A stretch of DNA of 58,927 bases from Deltaproteobacteria bacterium (GCA_016213015.1 JACRCE010000057.1:1-58927); one strand, 5' to 3'; shown: positions 1 to 34,982, numbered from the stretch's first letter. The notes: generated from the letters alone by a model not told the origin. Translations and numbers: made by a program.

Positions 1-648
1 CTGACGTCACATGAGTTTACGACAGAGGAAAGACGCATCCTTAGCCGAAGCGCCGCCAATATATTCAAGAAGGATGCGTTGAAGACCGGAGAGTTTCTCT
101 CGCATCTGAAAAATCTGGAAATGCTCTACCCTGAAAAAGCCGGTCTGTTCGACGACGTTACCATGTTGTTCAACAGGAGGTATTTGAAGATTCGTCTTAC
201 GCAGGAGATAAACAGGTCCGCAAGGTACAGCATACCGCTCGTCATTTTGATGATAGACGTGGACCGTTTCGACAACTACCTGTCCAGAAAGGGCGAATAC
301 TACGGGAATCTTATGCTTAAGAAGTTGACCGAGCTTTTGAGGCGCTCGACGCGCTCATCCGACGTAGTGGCGCGCTACGATAGAAACTCGTTTGCCCTTA
401 TACTTACGAACACATTCATTGACGCGGGCGCGTCCCTTGCCAAGAGGTTCATCTCGATGGTGCACGACTATCCGTTCCTTTATGAGGAGGTGCAGCCAGG
501 CGGCAGGGTTACGGTCAGCATCGGCGCCGTTGCCTTCAAAAAGGGCAATACGCTTGATGATATAATCAAATATGCGGAGACCTCGCTCTCGGATGCCCAT
601 AAAAAAGGCGGCAACAGGCTTGAAGTGTATACGTATACGAACCTTTGA
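1..648 (+). CDS. GGDEF-domain protein, 5'-truncated at the window edge. Catalytic motif is degenerate (DRNSF) and the RxxD I-site is retained
   Basis: Frame 1 is open from nt 1. 'MIDVDRFDNY...GEYYGN...RSSDVVARYDRNSFALIL' fits the GGDEF-domain layout, with RSSD 5 aa before the GGDEF position. Confidence 0.75.
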   Translation: MTSHEFTTEERRILSRSAANIFKKDALKTGEFLSHLKNLEMLYPEKAGLFDDVTMLFNRRYLKIRLTQEINRSARYSIPLVILMIDVDRFDNYLSRKGEYYGNLMLKKLTELLRRSTRSSDVVARYDRNSFALILTNTFIDAGASLAKRFISMVHDYPFLYEEVQPGGRVTVSIGAVAFKKGNTLDDIIKYAETSLSDAHKKGGNRLEVYTYTNL

Positions 649-1488: not shown

Positions 1489-1645
1489 GGATACTATTGG
1501 ATGAGTTCCGAACAGGTATTCATATTATTGTATCCATGCGCGGCTGACGCAAACACAGGGGGCCGAGATATCATCGGCTCCTTTTTTATTTACCATTTTC
1601 GGCATTCATCTGGTATAATAGTTAAAAAGTTTGGGAAGGAGAGGC

Positions 1646-2998
1646 ATGTTAACTCGGCGCGCGCGTCCGGAAAAATTCCTTTTTCTCTATCTGCCCACCT
1701 ACAGGCGTATCGTCATAGTATCAACCGTCGTCGCCCTTATCTTCCCCGGCGTCGTACAGATTTTTTTCGGCGATTACATACAGCTTTTTTTTAAGGACAA
1801 TATCCCCTTATATGCAAATGCGGCGGAGAACGCCTTCTGGGTGATACTCGGCATAGCGAGCGTCTTGGTGATAGCCATGAAACTTTCCGGCAGGTCGTTA
1901 AAGAAGATATCCACCGCCGAGCAGGAGATGTTCAAGGAGTTTGTAGAGCACAGCGATGCCTTTCTCATCCGCAAGCAAAGGTTCGAGCGATACTTCGATA
2001 CACAGCATGAGCTGAACACCCTTACGAGGGCGCATCTCGACACCATGATAAAGATTACTGACGAGGACGCGCATAGGATAATAAACCGCACGCAGAATAT
2101 AGACCAGTCCATGTTATGGATGCACGAGACGCTCAATGCGCTCGATAAGCAAAGCGGCGCGCTTGCCGTTCAATCGAGCGAGACCTTGTTGGCCAACGAA
2201 AAGACGGTCATTGACCTGCATGCCTATATCGACAGGAGGCTCGGCGAGGTCGAGCGCGACTATGAGGTGGTGATGAGCCTTGCCGAGAAGGCAAGGAGCA
2301 TGACCAACCTCGTGGAACTCCTCAAGGACATCAGCGATCAGACCAACCTCCTAGCGCTGAACGCGGCCATAGAGGCCGCAAGGGCAGGTGAGCACGGCAG
2401 AGGCTTTGCAATCGTGGCGCAGGAGGTCAGGAAGCTGTCGAGCCAGTCGGAGCAGGCCGCGACAAAGATAGGCCATGCCATGATGCAGATGGCCCAGGAC
2501 ATAGAGACCCAGTTTGCCAACAAGATAAACCAGCAGGCAAGCCAGCAGGAGTCCCAACTCCTTAAAAATCTCGAAGGCCAGCTCGCTAAATTGGGCGAGA
2601 GCTACAGCGCCCTCGACGCGCTCAACAAGAAGATACTCGAACAGGTGAGGACAAGCTCTAAGAAGGTCTCGGCGCAGGTGTTGGAGCTTCTCGCGGACGT
2701 GCAGTTTCAGGACATCCTGAGCCAGCAGATAAACCTTGTGATGCGTACCCTGACCGATACGAACAAGTACCTTGAGCATCTGAAATACTGCATAAACAGA
2801 GAGGGAAAATGCACGCCTGACTGCTCGGACCCGGACTGCGCTACGACCGAGTTCAGCATCGACGGCCTGTTCAACTATTATGTGATGGACAAACAGAGGG
2901 ATACCCACGAGACCGTCGTAAGCAACGGGAAGGGCAAGAAGGTCGTCAAGGAAAAAGCGGCAAAACAGCTCGTCGAGGGAGAAGTTACATATTTTTGA
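1646..2998 (+). CDS. mcp: Methyl-accepting chemotaxis protein, atypical: short N-terminal membrane part, no obvious HAMP, Cys-rich C-terminus
   Basis: Hairpin-tip signature '[35 protein letters not shown]'. ATG 1646 follows GGAAGGAGAGG; the ORF track starts at TTG 1631. Confidence 0.8.
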
Positions 2999-3009
2999 GA
3001 GGTGTCAAC

Positions 3010-3378
3010 GTGCAAAAGACCATAATGATAGTGGACGACTCGGCTTCCATCAGACAGGTCGTCAACCTGACCCTTAAAAAGGTCGGTTATAACGTGATAG
3101 AGGCTACCGACGGCGAGGACGCGCTGAAAAAACTGGTCGGGGCCAGAGTCAACCTCGTGGTATGCGACGTGAACATGCCCAACATGGACGGGATAACGTT
3201 CCTGAAGTCGCTCAAGAATTCGGCCGCGCATAAGTTTACGCCGGTCATAATGCTTACGACCGAGTCGCAGGAGGCGAAAAAGCAGGAGGGCAGGCAGGCC
3301 GGCGCAAAGGCATGGGTGGTAAAGCCCTTCAAGCCGGAGCAGATGCTCGAGGCGATTGCCAAGCTGATGTGTGATTGA
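3010..3378 (+). CDS. cheY: CheY-like single-domain response regulator (paralog 2)
   Basis: GTG 3010 follows GAGAGG and gives the same N-terminal length as paralog 1. 'VVCDVNMPNMDG', 'MLTTES', 'VVKPFKPEQMLEA'. Confidence 0.85.
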   Translation: MQKTIMIVDDSASIRQVVNLTLKKVGYNVIEATDGEDALKKLVGARVNLVVCDVNMPNMDGITFLKSLKNSAAHKFTPVIMLTTESQEAKKQEGRQAGAKAWVVKPFKPEQMLEAIAKLMCD

Positions 3379-3782
3379 TGGAGATCGGTGAAGTCGTTGA
3401 TAAGATATCGGCCGTTTTGCAGGGTTTTAAGGAAGTGGAGGTTGCCTATCTCTTTGGGTCTTATGCGACCGGTGAGGCACGGGCAACTTCCGACGTAGAC
3501 ATCGCCATCCTTGCGCCGCAACTCGGTCTTGATAGGTTTTGCGAGTTGTGGTCTTGCATTACAATCGCCGCTGGAACCGAACGCATAGACCTTGTTACGC
3601 TTGACGACAAGCCGGCGTTATTCAGATACGAGGTGATAAAAGAGGGCAGGCTTATTTATTGCAAAAACGACGAAACGCTTAATGACTTCGAGATGAAATC
3701 GTGGCAGGCGTATATGGACGGCAAGCATATCAGGGGGATATACTTAAACGACTTTTACGCGGGATTGAGCCGTGGTATTTAA
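3378..3782 (+). CDS. mntA: Nucleotidyltransferase-domain antitoxin (MntA-like, type VII TA)
   Basis: 'FGSYATGEARATSDVDIAIL' matches GS-x(n)-D-x-D of the minimal NTase fold. ATG 3378 overlaps the cheY TGA (TGATG). Confidence 0.75.
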   Translation: MEIGEVVDKISAVLQGFKEVEVAYLFGSYATGEARATSDVDIAILAPQLGLDRFCELWSCITIAAGTERIDLVTLDDKPALFRYEVIKEGRLIYCKNDETLNDFEMKSWQAYMDGKHIRGIYLNDFYAGLSRGI

Positions 3783-4200
3783 GAAGGAATCAATTGAAGA
3801 TCGGCTGCTGAAGCTCGACCAGGCGCTTGGCGTGCTGGAAGGGTATAAGGGTATTACATCGGATAGTTATCTATCCGACATAAAAACGCAATGGGTCGTA
3901 GAGCGAGGCTTTATAATCGCGGCCGAGATGATATTCGATATCAGCGCGCACATATTGTCGAGCGTTTACAGAGAGTATCGCGACGAATACGAAGGCATTA
4001 TAAGGGGCATTGCGGATAAAGGCGTTATATCGCGGACGCTCATGGGCGAGCTTAAAGGCTTCGGCGGCTTCAGGAACGTTCTTATCCATGAATACGTTAC
4101 GCTTGACTCGAGAAAGGTATATGACGCCCTCAAGGGCAAGTTGGCGGCATTGGAGAGATTTAAGAAAGAGATAGCTCAATGGGTTCGCCTGCAAGGGTAG
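3772..4200 (+). CDS. hepT: HepT-like HEPN (DUF86) toxin
   Basis: R-x4-H motif in 'GFRNVLIHEY'. The GTG start overlaps the end of mntA by 11 nt. Confidence 0.75.
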   Translation: MVFKKESIEDRLLKLDQALGVLEGYKGITSDSYLSDIKTQWVVERGFIIAAEMIFDISAHILSSVYREYRDEYEGIIRGIADKGVISRTLMGELKGFGGFRNVLIHEYVTLDSRKVYDALKGKLAALERFKKEIAQWVRLQG

Positions 4201-4332
4201 GCGGTGAAGGCATGCCTGTGTCCGCATATAGCGTAGGCGTAAAGATGATAAAGACCGGCTTGCAGTCAGTCAATATCGGGTTTTTCAACCACCCGTTAGC
4301 GGCGAGATATGATTGTGTGAGGTGATCTGGCG

Positions 4333-4656
4333 ATGGAAGTCTCAACGGAGACGAATAACGACGTTCTGACCCTCCGGCTTGCCGGCGAGGCCACCATTTA
4401 CGGCGCCTCGGAGTTGAAGGCAAGGCTGGACAATGTTTTTTCCGATCATCGGGACTGCGTCTCTCTTGAGCTTGACCTGTCCGGCGTAACCGAGATGGAC
4501 AGCGCTGGACTGCAACTGGCGCTTGCGGCCAAGCGCGAGGCCGTCTCTCTCGGCAAGGGGTTCAAGGTAGTCGCTCACGGCAACGCGTCAAAGGCTCTCG
4601 CTACGCTTTACAATCTCGACGATTATCTGAACGCCGCGGGGAAAGATAATGGATAA
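4333..4656 (+). CDS. STAS-domain protein (anti-sigma-factor-antagonist-like)
   Basis: 'LDLSGVTEMDSAGLQLAL' resembles the SpoIIAA/RsbV DSSGL/DSTGL region, with Ser conserved. Stop overlaps the cheA start. Confidence 0.7.
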   Translation: MEVSTETNNDVLTLRLAGEATIYGASELKARLDNVFSDHRDCVSLELDLSGVTEMDSAGLQLALAAKREAVSLGKGFKVVAHGNASKALATLYNLDDYLNAAGKDNG

Positions 4657-6859
4657 CGTGCTTGGGCAGGTGCGACATACGTTCATAGCCGAGGCGCGCG
4701 AGCTGTTGCAGGAGATCGAGAACGCGCTTCTCGCGCTTGAGGCGCGGCCTCAGGACAACGAATCCATCAACACCCTTTTCCGCGCCGTCCATACGATCAA
4801 GGGTTCATCGGGCATCGTCGGCATGGAAACGGTCGAAAGATTCACGCACCTCGTGGAGAATCTTCTTTCCATCGTGCGCGATGGGCGCATCCGCGTAACC
4901 AACCGCATTATCGAACTACTCCTTGAATCAAGGGATCATATTGCCCTGCTTGTCGAGCTTGCCGCCGAGGAAAGGGAGGCAGACAAGGACGTGCTTGCCC
5001 GCGGCGCGCATCTTGGCGACAGGCTTAATGCGTTTTTCGCCTCCGGTCCCGAGGGCGCAATGGTTTCCGAATCGGCGTCGAAAAAAACGGACGATACCGC
5101 CGCTCAGGGCCGCCTTGCTTCGACCGATGCATGGCATCTGTCCATCAGGTTCGGCCCCGATACCTTTAGAAGCGGCATGGACCCCGCGTCATTCCTGACA
5201 TATCTTACGCGGCTCGGCGATATTACCTCCCTTGTTACCTTGTTCGATCTCATGCCCGCCTTCCGCGAGATGGACCCTGAAAGCTGTTATCTCGGTTTTG
5301 AGATAGACTTGAAGAGCGACTTCGATAAAAAAACCCTTGAGGACGTCTTTGAATTCGTGCGTGAAGACTCCATAATCCGCATCCTGCCGCCGCACAGCAG
5401 GCTCGAATCATACATCGAGCTTATAAACGACCTGCCCGAGGATGCGGAGCTTCTCGGCGAGATACTGCTCAAGGGCGGCGCGCTTTCTCAGACCGAGCTT
5501 GACGACGCGCTAAGACTGCAATCAGCCGAATCCGCCATGGCGGATTCGGAACGGGGCGAGGCGGCTCAGCCCATAGGCAGGATACTCATAAACGAAGGCA
5601 TGGTGCCGGACGTGCTTGTAGACGCGGCCCTTGAGAAGCAAACCCAGACGCGGGTGCATAAATCAAGAGAGAGCGGCACGGTGCGCATCAGCGCCATGAA
5701 GCTCGACGCGCTCGTCAACCTCGTGGGCGAGCTTGTCATATCGAGCGCCAACGTCAATCAGCACACGCGGAGATTGAAGGACAACGGGCTTTTCGAGGCC
5801 GCGTCCAACATGCAGCGTCTGGTCGAGGACGTGCGCGATACGGCCATGAAACTGCGAATGGTTCCCATAGGCGAGACGTTCAGCCGCTTCAACCGCACGG
5901 TCCGCGACATAAGCTCCGGGTCGGACAAGGAGATCGGCCTCGTCATAACGGGCGCGGAAACCGAGTTGGACAAACTCGTGGTGGAGAAGATAAACGATCC
6001 GCTCATGCACCTTGTGCGTAATGCCGCTGATCACGGCATAGAGGGGCGGGCGGAAAGAAACGCGGTCGGCAAGCCCGTAAAGGGGAGTATCTGTCTGAAC
6101 GCCTGTTATGACGCCGGTTCCGTTGTGATCACCGTCTCAGACGACGGCAGAGGGCTTGACAGGGAGAAGATCAAGGAAAAGGCGGTCTCTCTTGGATTGA
6201 TAGAGGCGGACAAAACCCTTTCCGACGGCGATATATACAAGCTCATCTTCGAGCCGGGTTTTTCAACGGCTCAGGAGGTAACCAAGCTCTCAGGCAGGGG
6301 AGTGGGCATGGACGTGGTGCGCCGTAACATAGATTCGCTCAGGGGCACGGTAGGCGTGGACAGCGTAAGCGGAAAGGGCACGACGGTCAGCATAAGACTG
6401 CCTCTTACGCTTGCGATAATAGACGGCTTCATGGTCCACGTGGCAGGGTCAAGCTACGTCATACCGCTTGAGATGGTTACCGAGTGCGTCGATCTGCCTG
6501 ACTCGGAAAGGAACGCCGACAAGAGACGCGGATATATAAACCTTAGGGGCGAGGCGCTTCCCTATATACGGCTTACGTCTTTTTTCGATTGCGCCGAGAC
6601 GCCCGGATACTCCGGCGCGCGGGAGAGTATAGTAATCGTCAGACATGCGGGACGGCTGATCGGGCTTGTGGTGGACGTGCTTGAAGGCGAGATGCAGGCC
6701 GTCATAAAGTCGCTCGGCTCCGTTTACAGGGATGTGAGAGGCATATCGGGCGCGACGATAATGGGGGACGGCACGGTTGCGCTTATTGTAGACGTGCCGG
6801 CTATAGTGCAAACGGTCGAAGAGGAGATAAAGACGGTCGGATCGGCGCAGCGGACTTGA
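4649..6859 (+). CDS. cheA: Chemotaxis histidine kinase CheA (736 aa) with about 200 aa of extra sequence between Hpt and the dimerisation domain
   Basis: Hpt '[12 protein letters not shown]'. '[16 protein letters not shown]', 'GRGVGMDVV', and a C-terminal CheW-like P5. Confidence 0.9.
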
Positions 6860-6885
6860 CGGAACACAATAGGGAGGTTACACGT

Positions 6886-8592
6886 ATGAATTTTTTCAGG
6901 AATCTGAAGACCAGTTCCAAGCTGATAGTGAGTTTTGTCCTGCTCATAATATGCATCATCGTCCTTGGGGTGGTGAGCGTAACGAGGATGGGCGATCTGC
7001 GCGCCATGTTAGAGACCATGTACGACGACAGGCTTATTCCGCTCATAGACCTTGACAAGATAAACGGCGAACTCGGCCAGCTTCGCATAGGCGCGTTGCA
7101 GATAACCAACGAGCCGGACCAGTCCAAGAGGCAGACCATCCAGAACAACGCCGAGGAGTGGGAAAAGGGAATAGAGAGTATCATCGTCAAGTACGGCGCG
7201 ACCAAACTTACGCCGGAAGAGAAAAAGACCTATGAGGAGTTCAGGAGCGCATGGAAGCTGTATAACGACTCAAGGACAAACACCTACAACTGGGCGCTCG
7301 AGGGAAGCTTCGAGAAGGCCAAGCACAACGCGGCCACGGACGCCGGAGTAAAGTTCAAGATTGCCGACGCCAAGCTCAAGAGGCTCATAGAGATTCAAGA
7401 CGAGGTCTCGAAGGATCTTTACAAGCAGGCAGAGGCCAACTATTCCGCGATAAGACTGCTGGTCATAATAGTAACGCTTGTCGTAATAGCCATAGGCGTA
7501 ATCTTCGTTATAATATTAACGAGGATGATAGCTGCGCCGCTGGCAAACCTTACGGCCAACGTGGCCAACAAGATCGCGGTCGGCGATCTGACGGTTGATA
7601 TCGAGGTGAGGGGCACGGATGAGGTTGGCCAGCTCCTCTCAGCCATGAAGAACATGGCGGACAAGTTAAGGGAGGTTGTTTCCGACGTGCGCACCGTCGC
7701 GGACAACGTGGCGTCCGGCTCACAGGAGCTTTCATCGAGCGCTCAGCAGATATCGCAAGGCTCCACCGAGCAGGCGGCCTCCACCGAGGAAACCACCTCC
7801 TCGATGGAAGAGATGGCGGCCAACATAAGGCAGAACTCGGATAACGCCCAGCAGACGGAAAAGATTGCGTCGAAGTCCGCCGCGGATGCCATAGAGAGCG
7901 GCAGGGCCGTGTCTCAGACGGTCGTCGCGATGAAGGAGATAGCAAGCAAGATTTCCATCATCGAGGAGATAGCGAGGCAAACCAACCTACTTGCCCTCAA
8001 CGCCGCGATAGAGGCGGCGCGGGCGGGTGAACACGGCAAGGGCTTCGCCGTCGTCGCGTCAGAGGTTAGAAAGCTGGCCGAGAGGAGCCAGACCGCGGCC
8101 GCCGAGATAAGCAAGCTCTCGTCAACGAGCGTTCAGGTTGCCGAACAGGCCGGCGGGATGCTAACGAAGCTCGTCCCGGATATACAGAAGACCTCCGAGC
8201 TTGTGCAGGAGATAAGCGCCGCGAGCAACGAGCAGAACAGCGGGGCAGAGCAGATAAACAAGGCGCTTCAGCAGCTTGATCAGGTCATTCAGCAGAACGC
8301 GAGCGCGGCCGAGGAGTTATCCTCCACCTCGGAGGAGCTTTCCTCTCAGGCGCTTCAGCTTCAGCACACGATAGACTTTTTCAAACTCCGCGATACAGGG
8401 ACGAGGAAGACGGCCTTTGCCGCAAGGCCGACGCTCAAGGCGCAAAGGGCGCAGGCAGGGCATCTGCCTCATGCGCAGGCAAAGGCACAGCACAAGGCGA
8501 TGCACTCGGCCGCCCCGGCCCCCGGAGGCGTTGCCCTCGACATGGGTCAGCACGGCAAGGACGAGCATGACAACGAATTCGAGAGGTTTTGA
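6886..8592 (+). CDS. mcp: Methyl-accepting chemotaxis protein: 2 TM, periplasmic helical sensor, HAMP, C-terminal EFERF tail
   Basis: ATG 6886 follows AGGGAGG. '[36 protein letters not shown]'. Confidence 0.9.
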
Positions 8593-8685: not shown

Positions 8686-9186
8686 ATGGCAGTACCCGCC
8701 ATAACACAGACGACTCAGTACCTTACATTCAGACTTGAAGACGAGGTCTTCGCCCTCGACATCTCCAAGGTGCGCGAGGTGCTCGACTTCACCACCGTAA
8801 CGAAGGTGCCGAGGACGCCTGATTTCATGCGAGGCGTCATAAACCTGCGCGGAAGCGTAGTGCCGGTCGTGGACATGCGCCTCAAGTTCGGCATGACGAT
8901 GACGCAAAAGACGGTCAACACGTGCGTCATAATCGCGGAGATAAGCCTTGACAACGAAAAGATCGTGCTCGGCGCCCTTGCCGACTCGGTGCAGGAGGTA
9001 CTCGATCTTGAGCCGAGCCAGATAGAGCCGCCGCCGAGGATAGGCGTAAGGCTCAAGACCGAGTTCATCATGGGCATGGGCAAGCAAGGCGACCAGTTCA
9101 TCATCATCCTCGACGTGGACAAGGTTTTTTCAACGGATGAATTGAGCATGGTGAGCGGCATTAAGGACGCGGCGCACGGCGTATGA
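8686..9186 (+). CDS. cheW: Chemotaxis coupling protein CheW
   Basis: 'YLTFRLEDEVFALDISKVREV...VPRTPDFMRGVINLRGSVVPVVD', typical CheW. AAGGAGGGG RBS. Confidence 0.9.
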   Translation: MAVPAITQTTQYLTFRLEDEVFALDISKVREVLDFTTVTKVPRTPDFMRGVINLRGSVVPVVDMRLKFGMTMTQKTVNTCVIIAEISLDNEKIVLGALADSVQEVLDLEPSQIEPPPRIGVRLKTEFIMGMGKQGDQFIIILDVDKVFSTDELSMVSGIKDAAHGV

Positions 9187-9199
9187 ACGGTTTCACGCA

Positions 9200-10036
9200 A
9201 TGATGACGGATAAAGACTTCAGGCGCTTGAGCGACTATATAAATGCCGAGTTCGGCATAAAACTGCCGCCGTCCAAGAAACAACTGCTTGTATCGCGGCT
9301 GGCAAAGCGGCTCAGAGCGCTCAATATAGGCACATACAAGGAGTACTGCGACTATCTCTTCAGCAATGAAGGCATGGAAAAAGAGATAGTCTGCATGATA
9401 GACCTTGTAACGACCAATAAGACCGATTTTTTCCGCGAAAACGATCACTTCGACTACCTCGTCAATACCGCCCTGCCGGAGCTTGTAAGGAACGACGGCG
9501 CAGGCGTAAGGAAGCCTCTTATGGCATGGAGCGCGGGTTGCTCCACCGGCGAGGAGCCGTATACCCTTGCGATGGTATTGAACGAGTTTGCCCTGAGCTA
9601 TCCGGGTTTGGGGTTCGACTACACCGTGCTTGCCACGGACCTTTCATCGCGCGTCGTCGAGGCCGCGGCAAAGGGGATATACTCATCCGACAGGCTCTCC
9701 CCGGTGCCGGATGAGTTCAAACGCAGGTATTTCCTGAAGAGCAAGGATCAGGCAAAAGGGCTTGTAAGGGTTGTCCCCGAACTCCGCGCTCACGTCAAGT
9801 TCAGGCGCTTGAACTTCATGGAGCGCGACTTCGGCTTCAGGGAGTGCATGGACGTAATATTCTGCAGAAACGTCTTCATATATTTCGACAAACAAACTCA
9901 GGAGAAGATCATCGGCAGACTTCTCGGACATCTGAGGGCCGACAGTTTTCTTTTTATCGGCCACTCGGAGACCTTGCACGCGGGAAACTATCCGCTTGTA
10001 AGGGTTGCCCCATCGGTATACAGAAAGACGGCCTAA
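9200..10036 (+). CDS. cheR: Chemotaxis protein methyltransferase CheR
   Basis: 'TNKTDFFRE', 'AWSAGCSTGEEPYTLAM', 'IFCRNVFIYFD'. Confidence 0.9.
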   Translation: MMTDKDFRRLSDYINAEFGIKLPPSKKQLLVSRLAKRLRALNIGTYKEYCDYLFSNEGMEKEIVCMIDLVTTNKTDFFRENDHFDYLVNTALPELVRNDGAGVRKPLMAWSAGCSTGEEPYTLAMVLNEFALSYPGLGFDYTVLATDLSSRVVEAAAKGIYSSDRLSPVPDEFKRRYFLKSKDQAKGLVRVVPELRAHVKFRRLNFMERDFGFRECMDVIFCRNVFIYFDKQTQEKIIGRLLGHLRADSFLFIGHSETLHAGNYPLVRVAPSVYRKTA

Positions 10037-10068: not shown

Positions 10069-10971
10069 ATGCATGGTCTATCGGATGAAGAGATAACCGG
10101 AGAACTGCTCAAGCGATTGAGGGACAAGGACAGGGCGTATCACGACCTTTCGGTGGTTACGAAGAAGCTGGAGGCTGTCAACGCCAGACTCATCGAGTCC
10201 GAAAAGTTGAAGACCGACTTCCTCTCGAACATTAGAAACGAGATAAATAACCCGCTTACGTCCGTGTTGACGCTCTGCGAATTTCTCGTCTCCGACGCGG
10301 ATTCGACAGGGCAGGAGACGCTTATCTCGGTCGCCGGCACCATCTACAGGGAGGCGTTCAACCTGAGTTTCCAACTCAGGAATATCTTCGCGGCGGCCGA
10401 GCTTGAAGCCGGAGACGCCGTGCTGTGCGCCTCAAACGTAGATATCCCCGCGCTTATACGCAATACCACGCTCTCCTTCAAGCAACGCATGACCGAAAAA
10501 AAGCTCTCCGTCGCGATCAACGTCGGAGAGGAGTGGAGCGCCTCTCCTTATTTCGTCGTTGACGCGGACAAGCTCCAGCGCGTACTGGCCAACCTGCTGA
10601 CCAACGCGATAGAGTTCAGCCACGAAGGAAAAAATATCGAGATAAGGGCCGGCAGGGAAGGCTCATCCCTCGTCGTTATCGTCGAGGACCACGGCATCGG
10701 CATCGAGAAGGACGCTCAAGGGATCATTTTCGACAGATTCAGACAGCTTGAAACAGGCGTAACCAAGAGCCACGCCGGGCACGGTCTGGGCCTGTCCATC
10801 GTCAAGGCGTTCGTCGAGTTGATGAACGGAACGATAACCGTACGCAGCGCGAAGAACGAGGGCACGGCCTTTACGGTAACGCTTCCCGAGGGGCAAGCCG
10901 TTGCCGGGGCATCCGCCTTTTCAGAGGACGGGAACGACTTTTTCTTCAACGACAGCGGCGAGAAGTTTTAG
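10069..10971 (+). CDS. Cytoplasmic HisKA/HATPase_c kinase-like protein whose phospho-acceptor His is replaced by Asn
   Basis: ATG 10069 follows AGGAGG. H-box position reads 'FLSNIRNEINNPL' (AAC at 10237-10239). N, G1 and G2 boxes are intact ('NLLTNAIEFS', 'DHGIGI', 'GHGLGLSI'). Confidence 0.75.
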   Translation: MHGLSDEEITGELLKRLRDKDRAYHDLSVVTKKLEAVNARLIESEKLKTDFLSNIRNEINNPLTSVLTLCEFLVSDADSTGQETLISVAGTIYREAFNLSFQLRNIFAAAELEAGDAVLCASNVDIPALIRNTTLSFKQRMTEKKLSVAINVGEEWSASPYFVVDADKLQRVLANLLTNAIEFSHEGKNIEIRAGREGSSLVVIVEDHGIGIEKDAQGIIFDRFRQLETGVTKSHAGHGLGLSIVKAFVELMNGTITVRSAKNEGTAFTVTLPEGQAVAGASAFSEDGNDFFFNDSGEKF

Positions 10972-10997
10972 CCGGAGTATGCGAGAGGCCTCGGAAA

Positions 10998-11480
10998 TTG
11001 CAGACCAATAACACAAAAGACGCGACAAACCATTATCTCTACCCGGGCATGTTGTTTGCACATAACGGACAGTGCGTCATTACGACCATACTCGGTTCAT
11101 GCGTCGCCGTATGTCTGTGGGACGCAACGAAGCTTGTCGGCGGCATGAATCATTACCTTCTGCCCCTGTGGAACGGAGATGGGCTTCCAACGCCAAGATA
11201 CGGCAACGTGGCCATTCCAATGCTCATTGAAAGGATGCGGCTCCTCGGCTCGAGGCGGGAGTCGTTGAAGGCCAAGGTGTTCGGCGGCGCAAACGTGCTT
11301 GAGTCGCTCGGCGGCCTCATCGACGTAGGAGAGCGCAACATCGCGCTGGCCGAGGACATGTTGAGAAGCGAGCGCATAACCGTCGTAAGCAGTGACACCG
11401 GCGGCAATCAAGGCAGAAAGATATTGTTCATGACCGACACGGGAGACGTGTTCGTGAAGAAGGTCGAGAAAAGACCGTGA
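10998..11480 (+). CDS. cheD: Chemoreceptor glutamine deamidase CheD
   Basis: 'LGSCVAVCLWD' active-site Cys region. TTG start, so the start is uncertain. Confidence 0.8.
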   Translation: MQTNNTKDATNHYLYPGMLFAHNGQCVITTILGSCVAVCLWDATKLVGGMNHYLLPLWNGDGLPTPRYGNVAIPMLIERMRLLGSRRESLKAKVFGGANVLESLGGLIDVGERNIALAEDMLRSERITVVSSDTGGNQGRKILFMTDTGDVFVKKVEKRP

Positions 11481-11498
11481 CCGTGATAGGAAATTGTA

Positions 11499-12563
11499 GT
11501 GCCGAATAAAAAGATAAGGGTGCTTATAATAGACGATTCGGCCGTTGTGCGTCAGGCGCTCTCGAAGATTATCTCCTCGGATGCGGCTCTTGAGGTGATG
11601 GGGGCGGCCGCAGACCCGTTCATAGCGGCGGACAAGATACGCGAAGAAGCGCCGGACGTAATCACGCTGGACATCGAGATGCCGCGCATGGACGGCCTGA
11701 CCTTTTTGCAGAAGGTTATGAGCCAGCATCCGATACCCATCGTTGTTATCTCAAGCCTTGCCGAGGAAAATTCCGAGACCGCGCTCCGCGCCGTCGAGTA
11801 CGGCGCGGCAGAGATCATTCAGAAACCTCATCTGGGGATCCGCAATTTTCTGGAGGAGGGCAAGATTCTGATATGCGACGCAGTAAAGGCCGCGGCAACG
11901 GCAAAACTCAGGCGCATAATCGAGAGAAGGGTTTCTCAAAAGCTCACGGCCGACGTTGTGATAGCCAAGGCCAGGACAAGGGCAATGGCCGAGACCACGA
12001 ACAAGGTGGCGGTCATCGGGGCCTCCACCGGCGGAACCGAGGCCATACGCGACATCCTTGAGGCCATGCCGCTTAACTCGCCGGGTCTTGTGATAGTCCA
12101 GCACATGCCTGAACATTTTACCGCGGCCTTTGCAAGGCGGCTTGACGGTATATGCCGCATTTCGGTCAAGGAGGCCGAGACCGACGATACCGTGGTCAGG
12201 GGACGCGCCCTTATCGCGCCCGGCAACAAACATCTTTTGCTCAAGCGTTCGGGGGCGCGTTATTACGTGGAGGTCAAGGACGGCCCGCTGGTTTCCAGGC
12301 ATCGCCCGTCGGTTGACGTGCTGTTCCGTTCCGCGGCCCAGAACGCCGGCAAGAACGCGGTGGGCGTGATAATGACGGGGATGGGAGATGACGGGGCGCG
12401 CGGCATGGCCGAGTTGCATGAGGCCGGCGCGAGATGCGTGGCGCAGAATGAGGATTCATGCGTAGTGTTCGGGATGCCGAGGGAGGCTATAAAGCGCGGC
12501 GCGGTTGACGCCGTACTGCCGCTTTCGGCCATACCGGACGAGATAATAAGGCAGTGCGGGTAA
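11499..12563 (+). CDS. cheB: Chemotaxis methylesterase/response regulator CheB
   Basis: Receiver 'IRVLIIDDS...[13 protein letters not shown]' plus esterase '[10 protein letters not shown]', 'VQHMP', 'TGMGDDGA'. Confidence 0.9.
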
Positions 12564-14472: not shown

Positions 14473-15816
14473 CTACGCCGCGTGTTCCTTTTCAGCGCCT
14501 TCCTTCTCGAAGAAGGCCGCAAGGTCGATGTCGGCGGTTGTCGGGTTGACGGTTGAAATGACGCTCCGCGAGCTGTCTGCGGCCAGATCGAGCGGCACGG
14601 GGGCGGGTAGAGCCTCGCCGTTTTTGTCGAAGAGCAGTTTTATGGCCGGCAATTCGAGGGCGTCCTTGTTGACGCTCGTTACGACGCCTATCTCGTTGCT
14701 TGAAAGCCTTACCAGAGTGCCGACCGGATACGTGCCGATCATGTTGATGAAGACGTTGAGCGCGTCAGGGTTGAAGTGCCTGCCTGAGAAGTTCAGCATG
14801 ACCCTCAGCGCCTCGGCAGGGTTATGCGGCTGCTGGTAGACCCTGAGCGTAGTCAGCGCGTCAAAAGCGTCGGATATGGTGATTATCTGCGTCAGGGGAT
14901 GCAGGTTGCTCATCGTTTGCGGGTAGCCTGAATGGTCGAATCTTATATGGTGTTCGTAGATGAGCTTGCCGATAAGTTCCGTCATCCCGTCCATTCGTTT
15001 TATGATGTTCGAGCCGAGGAGCGGATGCTCCTTTATCTTTTCCCACTCATCAGAGCTTAACCCGCCGGGTTTTCTTATTATCTGTTCCGATACGCCCGTC
15101 TTGCCGATGTCGTGCAGAAGAGCGCCGATGCCCACCGCGTGCAGTTCGTCCCTGTCGATGTTCATGGCCTTGCCGAGGGACAGCGCGATTATCGAGACGT
15201 TGACCGAGTGGTTGTAGAGGTAGTTGTCGTAGTTCTTGATCATCGTGAGGCCGATGATGGCGTTGGCGTCGCTCAACACGGACTCGGTAAGCTCGTTTAC
15301 GACGTCGTTGACGGGCTCTGATTTAGGTATCTTGCCGAGCCGAACGTCGTTCATCACGTTTTTGACCGTCTCGACCGCGCCGTTGTATATCTCGACTATC
15401 TTTTTTCTGACGGTCTTGAGGGTTATGTGCGTAACGCCTTTCGCATGCAGAAGTTTGTGCAACTCCTGCCCCTTTGGCGCATCCTGTCCGGCAAGCGTAT
15501 CAAAGAGGCTGAAAAGCTCTTTTTCGGTTACGCCTTTTTCAAATATGACGGCGTCCACCTGCTTGTCGGCGAGATGGGCAAGTAGTTCCGGAAACATCTG
15601 TTCTCCGTTCGACACGGGATGGTCTTCAAACACCAGCGCGTCGTTGACGTTGCCGATCATCAGATTTTTCTGCGTCTTCAGGACGTCCGTCAGAAGATCG
15701 TAGGATTTTTTGGACGGCGCGGCTATGGCCGGATGTCCCGGCGGATAGAGCTTCTTGCTCTTCATGGCCGCGTTTATGCTCTTGAGGATCGCATCCTGCA
15801 TGTCGGGCGATATCAT
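14473..15816 (-). CDS. HD-GYP domain phosphodiesterase with an uncharacterised N-terminal domain
   Basis: 'HSVNVSIIAL', 'LLHDIGKTGV', 'HHIRFDHSGYP'. Confidence 0.85.
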   Translation of the reverse strand: MISPDMQDAILKSINAAMKSKKLYPPGHPAIAAPSKKSYDLLTDVLKTQKNLMIGNVNDALVFEDHPVSNGEQMFPELLAHLADKQVDAVIFEKGVTEKELFSLFDTLAGQDAPKGQELHKLLHAKGVTHITLKTVRKKIVEIYNGAVETVKNVMNDVRLGKIPKSEPVNDVVNELTESVLSDANAIIGLTMIKNYDNYLYNHSVNVSIIALSLGKAMNIDRDELHAVGIGALLHDIGKTGVSEQIIRKPGGLSSDEWEKIKEHPLLGSNIIKRMDGMTELIGKLIYEHHIRFDHSGYPQTMSNLHPLTQIITISDAFDALTTLRVYQQPHNPAEALRVMLNFSGRHFNPDALNVFINMIGTYPVGTLVRLSSNEIGVVTSVNKDALELPAIKLLFDKNGEALPAPVPLDLAADSSRSVISTVNPTTADIDLAAFFEKEGAEKEHAA

Positions 15817-28474: not shown

Positions 28475-28525
28475 GTAGTTATATCTCAACCGAACCATTT
28501 GTGTGCTTCTCAGGCCGGAGAACAG

Positions 28526-29395
28526 ATGCATAAAGAAATCGGACATAATGCCCAAAATAATGTGCAAGCTGAACGTCAACCGCCAACACGGGTTATATCC
28601 ATAAGCAGCGGCAAGGGCGGCGTCGGCAAGACTAACACGGTCGCCAATCTTGCGGTCGCCCTTGCGAGGCTTGGAAAGAGGAGCCTTTTGATGGACGCGG
28701 ACCTTGGTCTGGGGAACCTCGACCTGTTGTTCGGCGTTCAGCCCGAATATAACATTACTCATCTCCTTAGCGGGGCAAAAACAATAGACGAGGTGTTGGT
28801 AAAAGGGCCTGACAACATCCTCATCCTGCCTGCCGCGTCCGGCGTTCAGGAGCTTACAAACCTTACGGCCGATGAGAGGCTCTCCCTCATCGCGCATCTT
28901 GAAAGCCTCTCCGTCAAGTTTGATATTATGCTGATCGACACCGGAGCCGGCATATCGGACAACGTGCTGTTCTTCAGCGGCGCCTCACATGACATAATGG
29001 TCGTGGTTACGCCTCATGGCGCGTCCATCACCGACGCCTGCGCCCTGATGAAGGCGCTTCTCAAAAAACGCGGCGAGCGTTCCTTCAAGCTCCTTGTCAA
29101 CGGCGTCAAAAGCAGGAAGGAGGGGCTTGAAGCCTATAGGAACGTCGTCGCCCTTGCCTCCACTATGCGCCTCGACATATCGGTTGATTATCTCGCCTGC
29201 GTACCGTTTGACGAAAACGTACGGAGGAGCGCCGCTCGCCGGATGACCGTCATGGAGGCGTTCCCGGAGTCGAAGGCGAGCATGGGTTACGAAGAGCTTG
29301 CAAGGGTCGTGTTGGATCTTCCGTATCCGGCGACGATGAAGGGCGGAATGCAATTTTTCTGGAGACGGACGTTTGATGCCGCGAACAGGGCGTAG
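28526..29395 (+). CDS. flhG: MinD/ParA-family flagellar number regulator FlhG (YlxH/FleN-like)
   Basis: Deviant Walker A 'SGKGGVGKT'. A C-terminal amphipathic tail ('MKGGMQFFWRRTF') is suspected. Lies immediately upstream of fliA. Confidence 0.75.
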   Translation: MHKEIGHNAQNNVQAERQPPTRVISISSGKGGVGKTNTVANLAVALARLGKRSLLMDADLGLGNLDLLFGVQPEYNITHLLSGAKTIDEVLVKGPDNILILPAASGVQELTNLTADERLSLIAHLESLSVKFDIMLIDTGAGISDNVLFFSGASHDIMVVVTPHGASITDACALMKALLKKRGERSFKLLVNGVKSRKEGLEAYRNVVALASTMRLDISVDYLACVPFDENVRRSAARRMTVMEAFPESKASMGYEELARVVLDLPYPATMKGGMQFFWRRTFDAANRA

Positions 29396-29398
29396 CAG

Positions 29399-29546
29399 TG
29401 CGTAAGAAAAACCAAATGACGTTGAAGGCTACTCAAAAAGCCGTAGATGCGAGGCGGCGAGGAAGCGATGAATGAGACGCACTTTGTTGTGCGTCGCAGT
29501 GAGGAGCGACGAGACAACAAAGCATATGCGGTTTTTTCAGCAGCAT
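29399..29546 (+). repeat. MITE-like element, family A, copy 2 (between flhG and fliA)
   Basis: '...CTCAAAAAGCCGTAGATGCGAGGCGG...GACGCACTTTGTTGTGCGTC...GAGACAACAAAGCATATGCGGTTTTTTCAGC'. Confidence 0.8.
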
Positions 29547-29580
29547 GGTAGTCAAAAAAAAGAAAGATAAGGATCGTGCA

Positions 29581-30315
29581 ATGAATACATACTGCACCGC
29601 GTTGAAACCGGAAAAGTCAAGGCTGTTGGGTGAACATCTGCACATCGTCAAGATAATCGCCTATCAGGTGGCCGGCGGATTGCCGCAGCATATAGACGTC
29701 AACGATCTGATAAGCGCGGGCATGATCGGCCTCCTCGAATCCGTGGAGAGGTTCGACTCGTCGCGGGGCGTGCAGTTCAACACCTATGCGTCTATCCGTG
29801 TGCGCGGCGCGATAATGGACGAATTGAGGAGCTTGGACTGGATGACGCGCTCCATGCGCGACAAGTCCAACCGTCTGGAAAAGGCATACGGCGCCATAGA
29901 GAAAAAGACGGGCAGGCCGGCCGGTGAAGAGGAGGTGGCCGAGTTGATGGGCATTACGACCGAGGAGTTTAACGCCCTTTTGAGCGAGGTGCGTTCCTTA
30001 AACGTCCTGAATCTCGAGGACATGGGGCTTAAAAATTTCGACGAGGGCATGGACATATTGGAGTGCATAAAGGACCCGAACGGCTGCGACCCTATGAGCG
30101 CGATGAAAACAACGGAGCTTAAAAGGAGCGTTGCCGAGGCGATAGCCTCGCTCCCCGAGAAGGAAAAGCTCATCATATCGCTTTACTACTACGAGGAGTT
30201 GACCCTCAAGGAGATCGGCAAGGTGCTCGATATAACCGAGTCGAGGGTCTGCCAGCTTCATACCCAGACCATGTTAAGGCTCAAGTCAAGGCTCAGTGTG
30301 TACGCAGATGCGTAA
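29581..30315 (+). CDS. fliA: Flagellar sigma factor FliA (sigma-28)
   Basis: 'LISAGMIGLLESVERFD...FNTYASIRVRGAIMDELRSLDW' and region 4 'LTLKEIGKVLDITESRVCQLH'. The tracked start at 29545 lies in a repeat. Confidence 0.85.
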   Translation: MNTYCTALKPEKSRLLGEHLHIVKIIAYQVAGGLPQHIDVNDLISAGMIGLLESVERFDSSRGVQFNTYASIRVRGAIMDELRSLDWMTRSMRDKSNRLEKAYGAIEKKTGRPAGEEEVAELMGITTEEFNALLSEVRSLNVLNLEDMGLKNFDEGMDILECIKDPNGCDPMSAMKTTELKRSVAEAIASLPEKEKLIISLYYYEELTLKEIGKVLDITESRVCQLHTQTMLRLKSRLSVYADA

Positions 30316-30471
30316 GCTTTTAGGCTGAAGGCGTTCAGGCTGTAGCGCGAAAATCGGCGGGATGGATGAAGCAAAGCGCGCCCAATCAAACGCCGCTGCC
30401 GATAATCGTCAACCATTTTCTGATATTATTGAAAAAATAGCGTATAATCTCACTGTAGAACCTTCCCCACA

Positions 30472-33248: not shown

Positions 33249-33255
33249 GGCGCGT

Positions 33256-33627: not shown

Positions 33628-33683
33628 AGCCGGTATAAATCCCTTTGTTATTATAGTCACCCGCGGTACTATTTTTTTGACAG

Positions 33684-33833: not shown

Positions 33834-33856
33834 TAAAACTACCGGAGGTTTCAGGC

Positions 33857-34267: not shown

Positions 34268-34306
34268 CGCCGTCGGTCATGTTCCCCTTGAAAGGAGATT
34301 TCAGCT

Positions 34307-34918: not shown

Positions 34919-34920
34919 AG

Positions 34921-34980: not shown

Positions 34981-34982
34981 AA

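What the first reader, a model, noticed from the sequence alone, without database searches (positions are those of the whole stretch)
4333..4656. STAS-domain protein translationally coupled to cheA inside a chemosensory operon
A 107-aa STAS (SpoIIAA/RsbV-like) ORF keeps the normally phosphorylated serine in 'EMDSAGL' (Ser57, nt 4501-4503). Its stop overlaps the cheA ATG by 8 nt (4649 vs 4656), so the two are probably co-translated. STAS proteins are the switch component of partner-switching cascades and are not part of the canonical Che core. The same operon also encodes a GHKL ATPase that lacks its phospho-His (10069-10971). Together these suggest the pathway is read out, or gated, through a partner switch rather than only through CheY and the motor. 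I cannot tell from the sequence whether this operon class is already described.
Basis: partly seen in the sequence, partly recalled or inferred. Interest (0 to 1): 0.75.

Follow-up and report, generated by a model that had tools for sequence, protein, structure and literature searches.

The report
CheA-linked STAS accessory of F8 chemosensory operon
The small STAS gene overlapping cheA is real, but it belongs to a widespread and already catalogued kind of chemosensory operon, and it looks more like a helper protein bound to the CheA kinase (as CheS is in Sinorhizobium) than like part of a phosphorylation-driven partner switch.

Summary
ORF 4333-4656 is a 107-aa STAS protein (Pfam 1e-14; AF2 model TM 0.78 to SpoIIAA/RsbV). 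Ser57 sits on the canonical phospho-site, and its stop overlaps the cheA ATG by 8 nt. The 10069-10971 product is a HisKA/HATPase_c protein with Asn in place of the phospho-His.

The partner-switch interpretation is mostly not supported.
- STAS-cheA adjacency holds in 78 of 79 assessable GTDB loci, within a fixed MCP-CheY-STAS-CheA-MCP-CheW-CheR-CheD-CheB order.
- The cluster's receptor is 34H, which points to class F8.
- STAS genes beside cheY/cheA are already described: F7 stage 1 (Ortega 2020), Shewanella che2, Campylobacterota gene-order maps, and CheS of S. meliloti, which binds CheA.
- No RsbW-type kinase or PP2C phosphatase lies in the window or is conserved in relatives.
- The His-less kinase is always followed by cheD (75/75 loci), often without any STAS, so it is CheD's partner.
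- All che-linked STAS proteins share a Gln where SpoIIAA/RsbV have Gly. The "phospho-Ser" varies among them (S/T/A/I/L).
- STAS co-occurs with a P2-like CheA domain.

Most likely this is a CheS-like CheA accessory: a new member of a known kind, of modest interest.

The parts
4333..4656 (+). STAS-only protein, 107 aa (CheS-like CheA accessory); its AGGTGA Shine-Dalgarno is at 4320-4325
   Evidence: Pfam STAS_2 9.7e-15; PDB phmmer; AF2 plus Foldseek TM 0.78 to SpoIIAA/RsfB/TM1442/RsbV; 250 genome relatives
4501..4503 (+). Ser57 codon, at the N-cap of helix alpha2, the position of the SpoIIAA/RsbV phospho-Ser
   Evidence: S or T in 133 of 150 HMM-selected representatives, C or A in 12. A/I/L/T in sister che-linked STAS proteins
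4513..4515 (+). Gln61 codon, the signature residue of che-operon STAS proteins (canonical antagonists have Gly here)
   Evidence: 150 of 150 representatives. Also Gln in the Vibrio F7 5' STAS, S. meliloti CheS and L105/L136/L137. Gly in TM1442, SpoIIAA and the Vibrio 3' STAS
4649..4656 (+). 8-nt overlap ATGGATAA between the cheA start and the STAS stop; the cheA SD GGGGA is at 4638-4642
   Evidence: In 81 relatives the stop-to-start gap runs mostly from -16 to +48 nt, with 20 overlapping (start codons chosen heuristically)
4649..6859 (+). CheA, 736 aa: Hpt(P1), P2-like middle domain, MshEN-like helical segment, P3, P4(HATPase_c), P5(CheW-like)
   Evidence: Pfam and NCBIfam; family conservation profile
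5120..5422 (+). CheA middle alpha/beta domain (aa 158-258), in the P2 position. It is shared with STAS-associated CheAs and is the proposed STAS/CheY docking region
   Evidence: HMM of this region hits the Vibrio F7 stage-1 CheA (1.5e-16), S. meliloti CheA (4e-14, about aa 179-262) and the L105/L136/L137 CheAs, all with a STAS gene nearby. It does not hit E. coli CheA, the window's second CheA or the 900-aa CheAs, none of which has a STAS. AF2 pLDDT 84.6. Foldseek gave no significant match
5432..5644 (+). MshEN-like double 24-residue motif in CheA (aa 268-291 and 308-331)
   Evidence: NCBIfam c-di-GMP motif hit; PilF alignment, E 0.15; regex test against the Wang 2016 relaxed motif
1631..2998 (+). 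McpA-like short chemoreceptor, first gene of the conserved cluster; a promoter-like site lies at 1590-1619
   Evidence: Pfam MCPsignal; conserved position in relatives; promoter scan; irregular heptad pattern
2995..3378 (+). CheY (cluster response regulator, CheYb); a paralogue CheYa lies at 901-1269
   Evidence: Pfam Response_reg; conserved immediately upstream of STAS in relatives
3375..4200 (+). MNT (3375-3782) and HepT (3772-4200) toxin-antitoxin pair inserted between cheY and STAS
   Evidence: Pfam Polbeta/NTP_transf_2 and HepT-like. Absent from beta/gamma relatives. A divergent pair sits at the same place in L005
6856..8592 (+). 4HB-HAMP chemoreceptor of heptad class 34H with C-terminal EFERF
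   Evidence: Pfam. 7-residue deletions in both arms relative to Tar (36H), with 40H and 36H internal controls
8686..10036 (+). CheW (8686-9186) and CheR (9200-10036)
   Evidence: ORF list; tblastn synteny
10069..10971 (+). His-less HisKA/HATPase_c protein (Asn57 in place of the phospho-His; ExxN motif and ATP boxes kept; C-terminal EKF). It is the partner of CheD, not of STAS
10998..12563 (+). CheD (10998-11480) and CheB (11499-12563)
   Evidence: ORF list; synteny

Best explanation
The ORF encodes the STAS accessory subunit of an F8-class (34H-receptor) chemosensory pathway. This pathway is a second, non-motor system in a delta-proteobacterial genome whose flagellar FliA-CheY-CheZ-CheA cluster lies elsewhere in the same window. 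The STAS protein is made in a fixed ratio with CheA, by tight and here overlapping translational coupling. It is proposed to bind CheA at or near its P2-like middle domain, using the canonical STAS interaction face (beta2-alpha1 'TIY.A..LK', 'D-S-A-G-L-Q-L-L..AKREA', 'HS..V'). There it would tune docking, phosphotransfer to, or dephosphorylation of the cluster's CheY, as CheS does for CheA/CheY1 in Sinorhizobium meliloti.

What is shown: the fold, the conservation of the pairing, the class, the absence of partner-switch enzymes nearby, and the co-occurrence with the P2-like domain. What is inferred: physical binding to CheA, the effect on CheY, and the idea that Ser57 acts as a helix N-cap or interface residue rather than a phospho-acceptor.
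For: The STAS fold is established. STAS is followed by cheA in 78 of 79 assessable GTDB loci, in the order MCP-CheY-STAS-CheA-MCP-CheW-CheR-CheD-CheB. The gaps are short or overlapping, and the same order is seen in Pfam-annotated contigs.

The 34H receptor points to F8. F7 and F8 are sister classes, and F7 stage 1 begins with 'anti-sigma factor antagonist, cheY, cheA' (PMC7184735). I re-found this arrangement in Vibrio locus L170. CheS of S. meliloti is a STAS-only protein encoded MCP-CheS-CheY1-CheA. It binds CheA and raises CheY1 affinity about 100-fold (PMC12654446, PMC4214558, PMC8429497; locus L086).

All che-linked STAS proteins share Gln61, where SpoIIAA, TM1442 and the phosphatase-linked Vibrio STAS have Gly. 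The 'phospho-site' varies among them (S, T, A, I, L). An HMM of the CheA middle domain detects every CheA that has a neighbouring STAS, including S. meliloti CheA at about aa 179-262, and none that lacks one. No RsbW or PP2C is found in the window, and no conserved extra gene in relatives.
Against: Sequence similarity to CheS itself is weak: BLASTP finds nothing, and hhalign gives probability 39%, E 3e-4. Common descent therefore rests on synteny and the shared Gln. Within the closest subfamily, Ser/Thr57 and Asp56 are well kept (89% and 100%), which is also what a phospho-regulated antagonist would show. No interaction was tested, because the tools offered no co-folding. The CheS-binding region of S. 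meliloti CheA (residues 163-256) is quoted from my memory of Dogra 2012, which was not held in the library. The co-occurrence test with the P2-like domain uses few independent negatives (5 CheAs).
Confidence: 0.55

Rival explanations
1. It is a genuine phospho-dependent partner switch. Ser57 would be phosphorylated and dephosphorylated by an RsbW-type kinase and a PP2C phosphatase encoded elsewhere, or by CheA's own GHKL domain. The STAS protein would then switch between CheA and another target such as an anti-sigma factor, giving the pathway a non-CheY output.
For: Ser57 lies exactly on the SpoIIAA/TM1442 phospho-site in a D-S-A-G context. S or T is kept in 133 of 150 subfamily representatives, and Asp56 in 150 of 150. 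The gene order STAS then GHKL kinase, with stop/start overlap, mimics rsbV-rsbW and spoIIAA-spoIIAB (comparison from established knowledge). Che-linked partner switches do exist: Shewanella Che1 CrsR/CrsA controls RpoS (PMC9855816), and F7 stage-1/2 clusters carry a second STAS plus a Ser phosphatase (PMC7184735; L170).
Against: No RsbW, PP2C or anti-sigma gene lies in the 58.9 kb window, and none is conserved next to the 80 relatives. The Gly of DS(S/A)GLG is replaced by an invariant Gln. In F7 stage 1, it is the other (3') STAS, with canonical DSAGLG, that sits beside the phosphatase, while the cheA-proximal STAS has Ala at the site. Sister che-linked STAS proteins have I, L or A there, and 8% of the subfamily have C or A. 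S/T at a helix N-cap needs no phosphorylation to be conserved.
Confidence: 0.15
2. The His-less GHKL protein (10069-10971) would be the serine kinase, or the switch partner, of the STAS protein.
For: Both genes lie in one operon. The His-less protein keeps all its ATP-binding boxes, so it may still use ATP. Its CA domain also gives a sub-threshold match to the RsbW-type Pfam model HATPase_c_2 (26.9 bits against a cut-off of 27.4).
Against: There is a double dissociation. Of the 80 GTDB STAS-cheA loci, only the delta-proteobacterial relatives L005 and L034 carry it between cheR and cheD. Its family (120 of 120 with Asn at the His position) is followed by cheD in 75 of 75 loci. Only 6 of 20 well-flanked loci have a STAS, and 7 of 20 have no other che gene.
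Confidence: 0.04
3. The STAS protein would be a phosphorylation-independent adaptor that links CheA to something other than CheY. Candidates are the McpA-like receptor encoded two genes upstream, another chemosensory array, or a c-di-GMP-related partner. In this reading it acts as a scaffold or localisation factor rather than a modulator of phosphotransfer.
For: The McpA-like MCP, CheY, STAS and CheA are always encoded in a row. In F7 systems, McpA-like receptors co-evolve with the cluster yet assemble in another array (PMC7184735). The CheA carries an MshEN-like segment, and degenerate GGDEF and HD-GYP genes flank the operon.
Against: There is no direct evidence. The only biochemically studied che-linked STAS, CheS, acts on CheA and CheY1. 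The co-occurrence with the P2-like (CheY-docking) domain favours a CheY-related role.
Confidence: 0.15

Closest known systems
CheS of Sinorhizobium meliloti / Agrobacterium (class F7, alpha-proteobacteria)
   Same: It is a STAS-only protein of about 100 aa, encoded in the che operon between the leading soluble MCP and cheA, next to cheY (L086). It carries Gln at the position equivalent to Gln61. Its CheA carries the same P2-like middle domain. The system has two CheY paralogues.
   Different: The gene order is MCP-CheS-CheY1-CheA rather than MCP-CheY-STAS-CheA. The sequence is barely alignable (BLASTP none; hhalign probability 39%). CheS reads 'VGTLCVQ' where the window reads 'MDSAGLQ', so it has lost the Asp and the Gly of the D-S-x-G motif (it has Thr at the Ser position). 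CheS works with 36H receptors and controls the flagellar motor.
cheA-proximal 'anti-sigma factor antagonist' of F7 stage-1 clusters (V. cholerae cluster III type; Ortega et al. 2020)
   Same: It is a small STAS gene directly upstream of cheY-cheA in an accessory, non-motor Che cluster that contains CheD. The family HMM hits it at 1.6e-12, and it shares the '..AG(L/V)QLL' motif.
   Different: The order is STAS-CheY-CheA. It has Ala at the phospho-site. Receptors are 36H Aer2-like. The cluster has two CheW genes, a second canonical STAS and a Ser phosphatase, none of which is present here.
Shewanella oneidensis che2 locus ('uncharacterized anti-sigma factor antagonist') and Che1 CrsR/CrsA
   Same: che2 has the same nine-gene content: six Che proteins, two MCPs and one STAS (PMC9855816). 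Che1 shows that a Che cluster can be wired to a STAS partner switch.
   Different: The che2 STAS is uncharacterised, and I could not compare its sequence. Che1's switch needs CrsR (REC-PP2C-kinase), for which there is no counterpart in the window.
SpoIIAA / RsbV / TM1442 anti-sigma-factor antagonists
   Same: They share the fold (TM 0.76-0.80), the length and the Ser at the N-terminus of helix alpha2 in an (M/I)DS(A/S)G context.
   Different: They are encoded next to an RsbW/SpoIIAB kinase and act on a sigma factor. They have Gly where this family has the invariant Gln61. No cognate kinase, phosphatase or sigma module lies nearby here; the only sigma gene in the window is a sigma-70-family gene (most likely FliA, from its place beside the flagellar Che genes) in the other Che cluster.

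Membership tests
STAS domain superfamily (Pfam STAS/STAS_2) | Sequence match above the curated cut-off, and a four-strand/four-helix STAS fold | tested here: met
   STAS_2 55 bits (cut-off 29.2) and STAS 35.3 bits (cut-off 22.6). AF2 pLDDT 84.9. Foldseek TMq 0.76-0.80 to SpoIIAA, RsfB, TM1442 and RsbV
Phospho-regulated anti-sigma-factor antagonists (SpoIIAA/RsbV type partner switch) | Ser/Thr at the N-terminus of helix alpha2 | tested here: met
   Ser57 aligns with the TM1442/SpoIIAA site. It is variable in sister che-linked STAS proteins
Phospho-regulated anti-sigma-factor antagonists (SpoIIAA/RsbV type partner switch) | Full DS(S/A)GLG motif | tested here: not met
   The window reads DSAGLQ. 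Gln61 is invariant in 150 of 150 representatives, whereas TM1442, SpoIIAA and the Vibrio 3' STAS have Gly
Phospho-regulated anti-sigma-factor antagonists (SpoIIAA/RsbV type partner switch) | Cognate RsbW/SpoIIAB-type GHKL serine kinase/anti-sigma factor encoded alongside | tested here: not met
   A Pfam scan of the candidate ORFs of 90 aa or more in the window found none; the only stand-alone GHKL proteins are CheA, the His-less HisKA protein and one ordinary HK. None is conserved in the 80 loci. The rest of the genome could not be examined
Phospho-regulated anti-sigma-factor antagonists (SpoIIAA/RsbV type partner switch) | PP2C (SpoIIE/RsbU-type) phosphatase | tested here: not met
   No SpoIIE/PP2C hit in the window or in the Pfam-annotated relatives L001-L004 and L087
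Phospho-regulated anti-sigma-factor antagonists (SpoIIAA/RsbV type partner switch) | Actual phosphorylation of the Ser | not testable with these tools
   Needs Phos-tag, mass spectrometry or in-vitro kinase assays
CheS (CheA-bound STAS accessory of alpha-proteobacterial F7 systems) | STAS-only protein encoded beside cheY and cheA in a che operon that has a leading soluble MCP and CheD | tested here: met
   Window operon compared with S. meliloti L086
CheS (CheA-bound STAS accessory of alpha-proteobacterial F7 systems) | Detectable sequence orthology to CheS | tested here: inconclusive
   BLASTP gives no hit. hhalign gives probability 38.9%, E 3.2e-4 over 72 columns. The Gln is shared
CheS (CheA-bound STAS accessory of alpha-proteobacterial F7 systems) | Binds CheA and enhances CheY binding and dephosphorylation | not testable with these tools
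   There is only indirect support: STAS co-occurs with the P2-like CheA domain
F8 chemosensory class (Wuichet-Zhulin scheme) | Cluster receptor of heptad class 34H | tested here: met
   The 6856-8592 MCP has symmetric 7-residue deletions relative to Tar (36H). Controls: the window's other MCP has +14/+14 (40H) and the Vibrio Aer2-like receptor has 0/0 (36H). F8 uses 34H receptors (PMC7184735)
F8 chemosensory class (Wuichet-Zhulin scheme) | CheA/CheB/CheR classified by the published class HMMs (MiST) | not testable with these tools
   The HMMs are not available here. Indirect support: Methylotuvimicrobium buryatense (L082), a relative of M. alcaliphilum for which an F8 cluster is reported, is in the family (PMC7184735)
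F7 stage-1/2 Che cluster with partner-switch module (Ortega 2020; Shewanella Che1 CrsR/CrsA) | Aer2-like 36H receptor, a second STAS, and a Ser phosphatase or CrsR | tested here: not met
   The receptor is 34H with a 4HB sensor. There is one STAS and no phosphatase

The most novel reading that the evidence does not exclude
In the F8 subfamily, which unlike its sister groups keeps Asp56 and Ser/Thr57, the STAS protein might be reversibly phosphorylated by CheA's own GHKL (P4) domain. The STAS-then-kinase gene pair, with overlapping stop and start, copies the rsbV-rsbW layout. Chemoreceptor state would then be written into a STAS~P switch that gates CheY docking or releases the STAS protein to a remote target. 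That would be a hybrid between a chemosensory pathway and a partner switch.
Probability: 0.08. Interest if true: 0.8.

Novelty: new member of a known kind. Interest (0 to 1): 0.3.

Why it matters
STAS genes next to cheA are common in the F7/F8 chemosensory classes; I found 250 GTDB species genomes for this subfamily alone. The only one studied biochemically is CheS of S. meliloti. The outputs of these accessory, non-motor Che systems remain largely unknown.

The comparison made here gives three testable handles:
- a signature residue (Gln61 in place of Gly) that separates che-linked STAS proteins from true anti-sigma antagonists;
- a variable 'phospho-site';
- strict co-occurrence with a P2-like CheA domain.

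Together these point experiments at a CheA/CheY-docking role rather than a sigma-factor switch. This window itself adds one more, TA-interrupted, example. It does not change the picture.

Tried and rejected
I repeated it with 11 sequences. The pattern it used (E[MIL]DSAGLQ[LV]) makes DSAGLQ invariant by construction in those loci. I therefore took residue statistics from the pattern-free HMM search instead.
- BLASTP of the window STAS against S. meliloti CheS found nothing.
- Foldseek of the CheA aa 140-345 model gave only weak ferredoxin-like/PII/HPPK matches (E>3e-3, TMq <0.3). Neither 'P2' nor 'MshEN' can be claimed from structure.
- Only 2 of 74 family CheAs have two strict MshEN motifs, so c-di-GMP binding is doubtful.
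- Wuichet & Zhulin 2010 and Dogra 2012 are not held. Fig. 1B of Mo 2022, which holds the gene orders with 'S' and 'K', is an image and is not held.
- A literature search for a CheD-linked pseudokinase returned nothing relevant. The Geobacter/Desulfuromonas genome papers mention neither STAS nor this kinase.
- The promoter/terminator scan was uninformative for the 4200-4333 gap, with no + strand site. The best + strand promoter-like site is 1590-1619, upstream of the first MCP.
- Clustering all non-che ORFs of the 80 loci found only shadow ORFs of che genes and genus-specific synteny.
- Co-folding STAS with CheA or with the His-less kinase was not possible. Structure prediction takes one chain and accepts only window or database sequences.
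- tblastn against plasmids gave two same-family clusters, annotated simply as 'STAS domain-containing protein'.

Full report
**Observation.** It encodes 107 aa. It matches Pfam STAS_2 (E 9.7e-15) and STAS (E 1.1e-8), both above their cut-offs. It aligns to TM1442 and SpoIIAA so that 'EMDSAGL' lies on their 'YMDSAGL' and 'FMDSSGL'. Nt 4492-4515 read EMDSAGLQ, so Ser57 is nt 4501-4503. An AlphaFold2 model (pLDDT 84.9) has the STAS beta/alpha order, with helix alpha2 starting at residue 57. Foldseek returns RsfB, SpoIIAA, TM1442 and RsbV at TMq 0.76-0.80. The stop TAA (4654-4656) overlaps the cheA ATG (4649) in ATGGATAA, and a GGGGA Shine-Dalgarno lies 6 nt upstream of that ATG. The 10069-10971 product is HisKA plus HATPase_c. 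When aligned to HK853, 'SHELRTPLT' reads 'RNEINNPLT', so the phospho-His is Asn while the ATP boxes are intact.

**Operon anatomy.** The genes on the + strand, are:
- a degenerate GGDEF protein (79-648);
- CheY (901-1269);
- a terminator-like site followed by a promoter-like site (1557-1619);
- an McpA-like MCP (1631-2998);
- CheY (2995-3378);
- an MNT/HepT toxin-antitoxin pair (3375-4200);
- STAS;
- CheA (4649-6859);
- a 4HB-HAMP MCP (6856-8592);
- CheW, CheR, the His-less kinase, CheD and CheB, then a methyltransferase.

A second Che cluster (28499-40664) runs FlhG-like, a sigma-70-family factor (most likely FliA), HEAT, CheR, CheY, CheY, CheZ, CheA, CheB, CheW, MCP, and looks like the flagellar system. 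Its MCP is 40H. The STAS-containing cluster is therefore an additional, probably non-motor, pathway.

**Conservation.** A scan of one genome per GTDB species found 250 relatives of the STAS protein. Of the best 80 loci, one ends at the STAS gene. Of the other 79, 78 have cheA as the next gene. The fixed order is MCP-CheY-STAS-CheA-MCP-CheW-CheR-CheD-CheB, across Aeromonas, Zobellella, Azonexus, Sulfuricella, Gallionellaceae, Chromatiaceae, Methylotuvimicrobium and delta-proteobacterial MAGs. Independent contigs with Pfam-annotated genes, and an annotated Pseudomonas plasmid, show the same order. The distance from the STAS stop to the cheA start is mostly -16 to +48 nt, and 20 of 81 overlap. 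Tight coupling is therefore general, while the 8-nt overlap is particular to this lineage; it also occurs in the closest relative, L005. The TA pair is an insertion. It is absent from the beta/gamma relatives, but a divergent MNT/HEPN pair sits at the same place in L005.

**Class.** Relative to E. coli Tar (36H), the cluster's MCP lacks exactly 7 residues in each arm of the signalling hairpin. In the same alignment the window's other MCP has +14/+14 (40H), and a Vibrio Aer2-like receptor has none (36H). A 34H receptor is the mark of class F8 (PMC7184735). Methylotuvimicrobium, whose relative M. alcaliphilum is reported to have an F8 cluster, is in the family (L082). I could not run the class HMMs.

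**What is already known.**
- Ortega et al. [quoted passage not shown] They treat F8 as the sister class. I recovered exactly this layout in Vibrio sp. THAF191d (L170).
- Fortier et al. [quoted passage not shown] For che1 they list the CrsR/CrsA partner switch acting on RpoS.
- Mo et al. [quoted passage not shown]
- In alpha-proteobacteria the STAS-only protein CheS, encoded MCP-CheS-CheY1-CheA (L086), binds CheA. It raises CheY1 affinity about 100-fold and speeds signal termination (PMC12654446, PMC4214558, PMC8429497).

The operon class and the STAS-cheA association are thus described. The function of the F8 STAS protein is not.

**Testing the partner-switch idea.**
1. No RsbW/SpoIIAB-type kinase, PP2C phosphatase or anti-sigma factor is encoded in the window. 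Clustering all non-che ORFs of the 80 loci finds no conserved extra gene.
2. The His-less kinase belongs to a large family of roughly 300-aa proteins. All 120 examined have Asn at the His position, invariant ATP boxes and a C-terminal E(R/K/E)F. In 75 of 75 loci with room downstream, the next gene is cheD. Of 20 loci with at least 6.5 kb upstream, only 6 have a STAS and 7 have no other che gene; examples are dnaN-HK-cheD-gyrB in L088 and L089. Conversely, the beta/gamma STAS clusters lack it. It is CheD's partner, not the STAS protein's.
3. In 150 representatives chosen by HMM score alone, position 57 is S (68), T (65), C (7) or A (5). Asp56 and Gln61 are each 150 of 150.
4. The sister che-linked STAS proteins read DAAGVQ (Vibrio 5'), DIACLQ, DLTFLQ, DISGLQ (L105, L137, L136) and GTLCVQ (CheS). 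The canonical antagonists, and the phosphatase-linked Vibrio 3' STAS, read DS(S/A)GLG.

The constant feature of che-linked STAS proteins is therefore the Gln, not the Ser. An S or T at a helix N-cap can be kept for structural reasons.

**Link to CheA.** CheAs of this family share a conserved alpha/beta domain (aa 158-258) in the P2 position, followed by an MshEN-like helical segment. An HMM of the alpha/beta domain hits the Vibrio F7 stage-1 CheA (1.5e-16) and S. meliloti CheA (4e-14, about residues 179-262). From memory of Dogra 2012, that region overlaps the mapped CheS-binding fragment; I could not verify this. The HMM also hits the CheAs of L105, L136 and L137. Each of these has a STAS gene beside cheY-cheA. 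It does not hit E. coli CheA, the window's second CheA or three 900-aa CheAs, none of which has a STAS gene. The sample of negatives is small, but the pattern fits a STAS protein that works with the CheY-docking part of CheA.

**Mechanism.** The most likely mechanism (about 0.55) is that the protein is a CheS-like accessory. It would be made stoichiometrically with CheA and would bind it through the conserved alpha2 face, modulating CheY docking, phosphotransfer or dephosphorylation. Rivals are:
- a true phospho-switch using a remote kinase and phosphatase, or CheA itself (about 0.15);
- a phosphorylation-independent adaptor to receptors or other partners (about 0.15);

**Verdict.** It is a new member of a known kind, and I score interest at 0.3. 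The more unusual thing met on the way is the invariant pairing of the His-less kinase with CheD, for which I found no description.

Noticed in passing
window 10069-11480 (His-less kinase 10069-10971, CheD 10998-11480); loci L087-L169: A family of roughly 300-aa HisKA/HATPase_c proteins has an invariant Asn at the phospho-His (120 of 120, 'FLSNIRNEINNPLT'). The ExxN phosphatase motif and the ATP-binding boxes are intact, and there is a C-terminal E(R/K/E)F. The next gene is cheD in 75 of 75 loci. This holds in F8 clusters, in STAS-less Che clusters and as orphan pairs such as dnaN-HK-cheD-gyrB. It may be a CheC-like partner of CheD, for example a CheY-P phosphatase or an ATP-dependent regulator. 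No dedicated NCBIfam model exists and I found no paper.
   Followed up: yes
window 5432-5644 (CheA aa 262-332): CheA has an MshEN-like double 24-residue motif: [24 protein letters not shown] and [24 protein letters not shown]. The second fits the Wang 2016 relaxed c-di-GMP motif. The first has Leu instead of R/K/P/N at position 1. The segment is family-wide in F8 CheAs and absent from the E. coli, S. meliloti and Vibrio F7 CheAs and from the window's second CheA. Only 2 of 74 family members have two strict motifs, so c-di-GMP binding is uncertain. MshEN-CheA fusions were noted in PMC5013675.
   Followed up: partly
window 3375-4200; L005:938-1613: An MNT (nucleotidyltransferase) / HepT (HEPN RNase) toxin-antitoxin pair is inserted between cheY and the STAS gene, inside the operon. 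The closest relative has a pair of the same kind at the same spot, but too divergent for tblastn at 1e-5. This suggests repeated insertion or replacement at this junction.
   Followed up: partly
window 28499-40664: A second, flagellar-type Che cluster runs FlhG-like ATPase, sigma-70-family factor (most likely FliA), HEAT-repeat protein, CheR, two CheY, CheZ, a short CheA (556 aa, no P2-like domain), CheB, CheW and a 40H MCP. It resembles F6.
   Followed up: partly
window 79-648, 14473-15816 (-), 41124-42731: There is a c-di-GMP theme around the operon. The GGDEF-domain protein has an active-site motif reading DRNSF but keeps an RxxD (RSSD) I-site, so it is likely a receptor rather than a cyclase. 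There is also an HD_5 (HD-GYP-type) protein and a REC-GAF-HD_5 protein.
   Followed up: no
window 8575-8589 and 10960-10968: The 34H MCP ends in EFERF, which aligns with the NWETF/EWEEF CheR-tethering pentapeptide of Tar and the Vibrio Aer2-like receptor. The His-less kinase family also ends in E(R/K/E)F, preceded by an FFF/FF patch. Whether the two tails dock to the same partner is unknown.
   Followed up: no
L170:8292-8585 and L170:18727-19026 (Vibrio sp. THAF191d, record NZ_CP046066.1): The two STAS genes of an F7 stage-1 cluster differ in kind. The cheA-proximal one reads VDAAGVQLL, which is not phosphorylatable and is of the Gln type. The distal one, beside the position of the reported Ser phosphatase, reads IDSAGLGML, which is canonical. 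The PLSDB record is unannotated in this region.
   Followed up: partly
window 53107-53854: There is a second HEPN-domain ORF (53438-53854), preceded by an overlapping 118-aa ORF (53107-53463). It may be another MNT/HEPN toxin-antitoxin pair.
   Followed up: no
L066 (Undibacterium MAG) 9484-9732: This is the only one of the 80 GTDB loci in which a family STAS gene has 10 kb downstream without cheA. MCP and CheW-like genes lie upstream.
   Followed up: no
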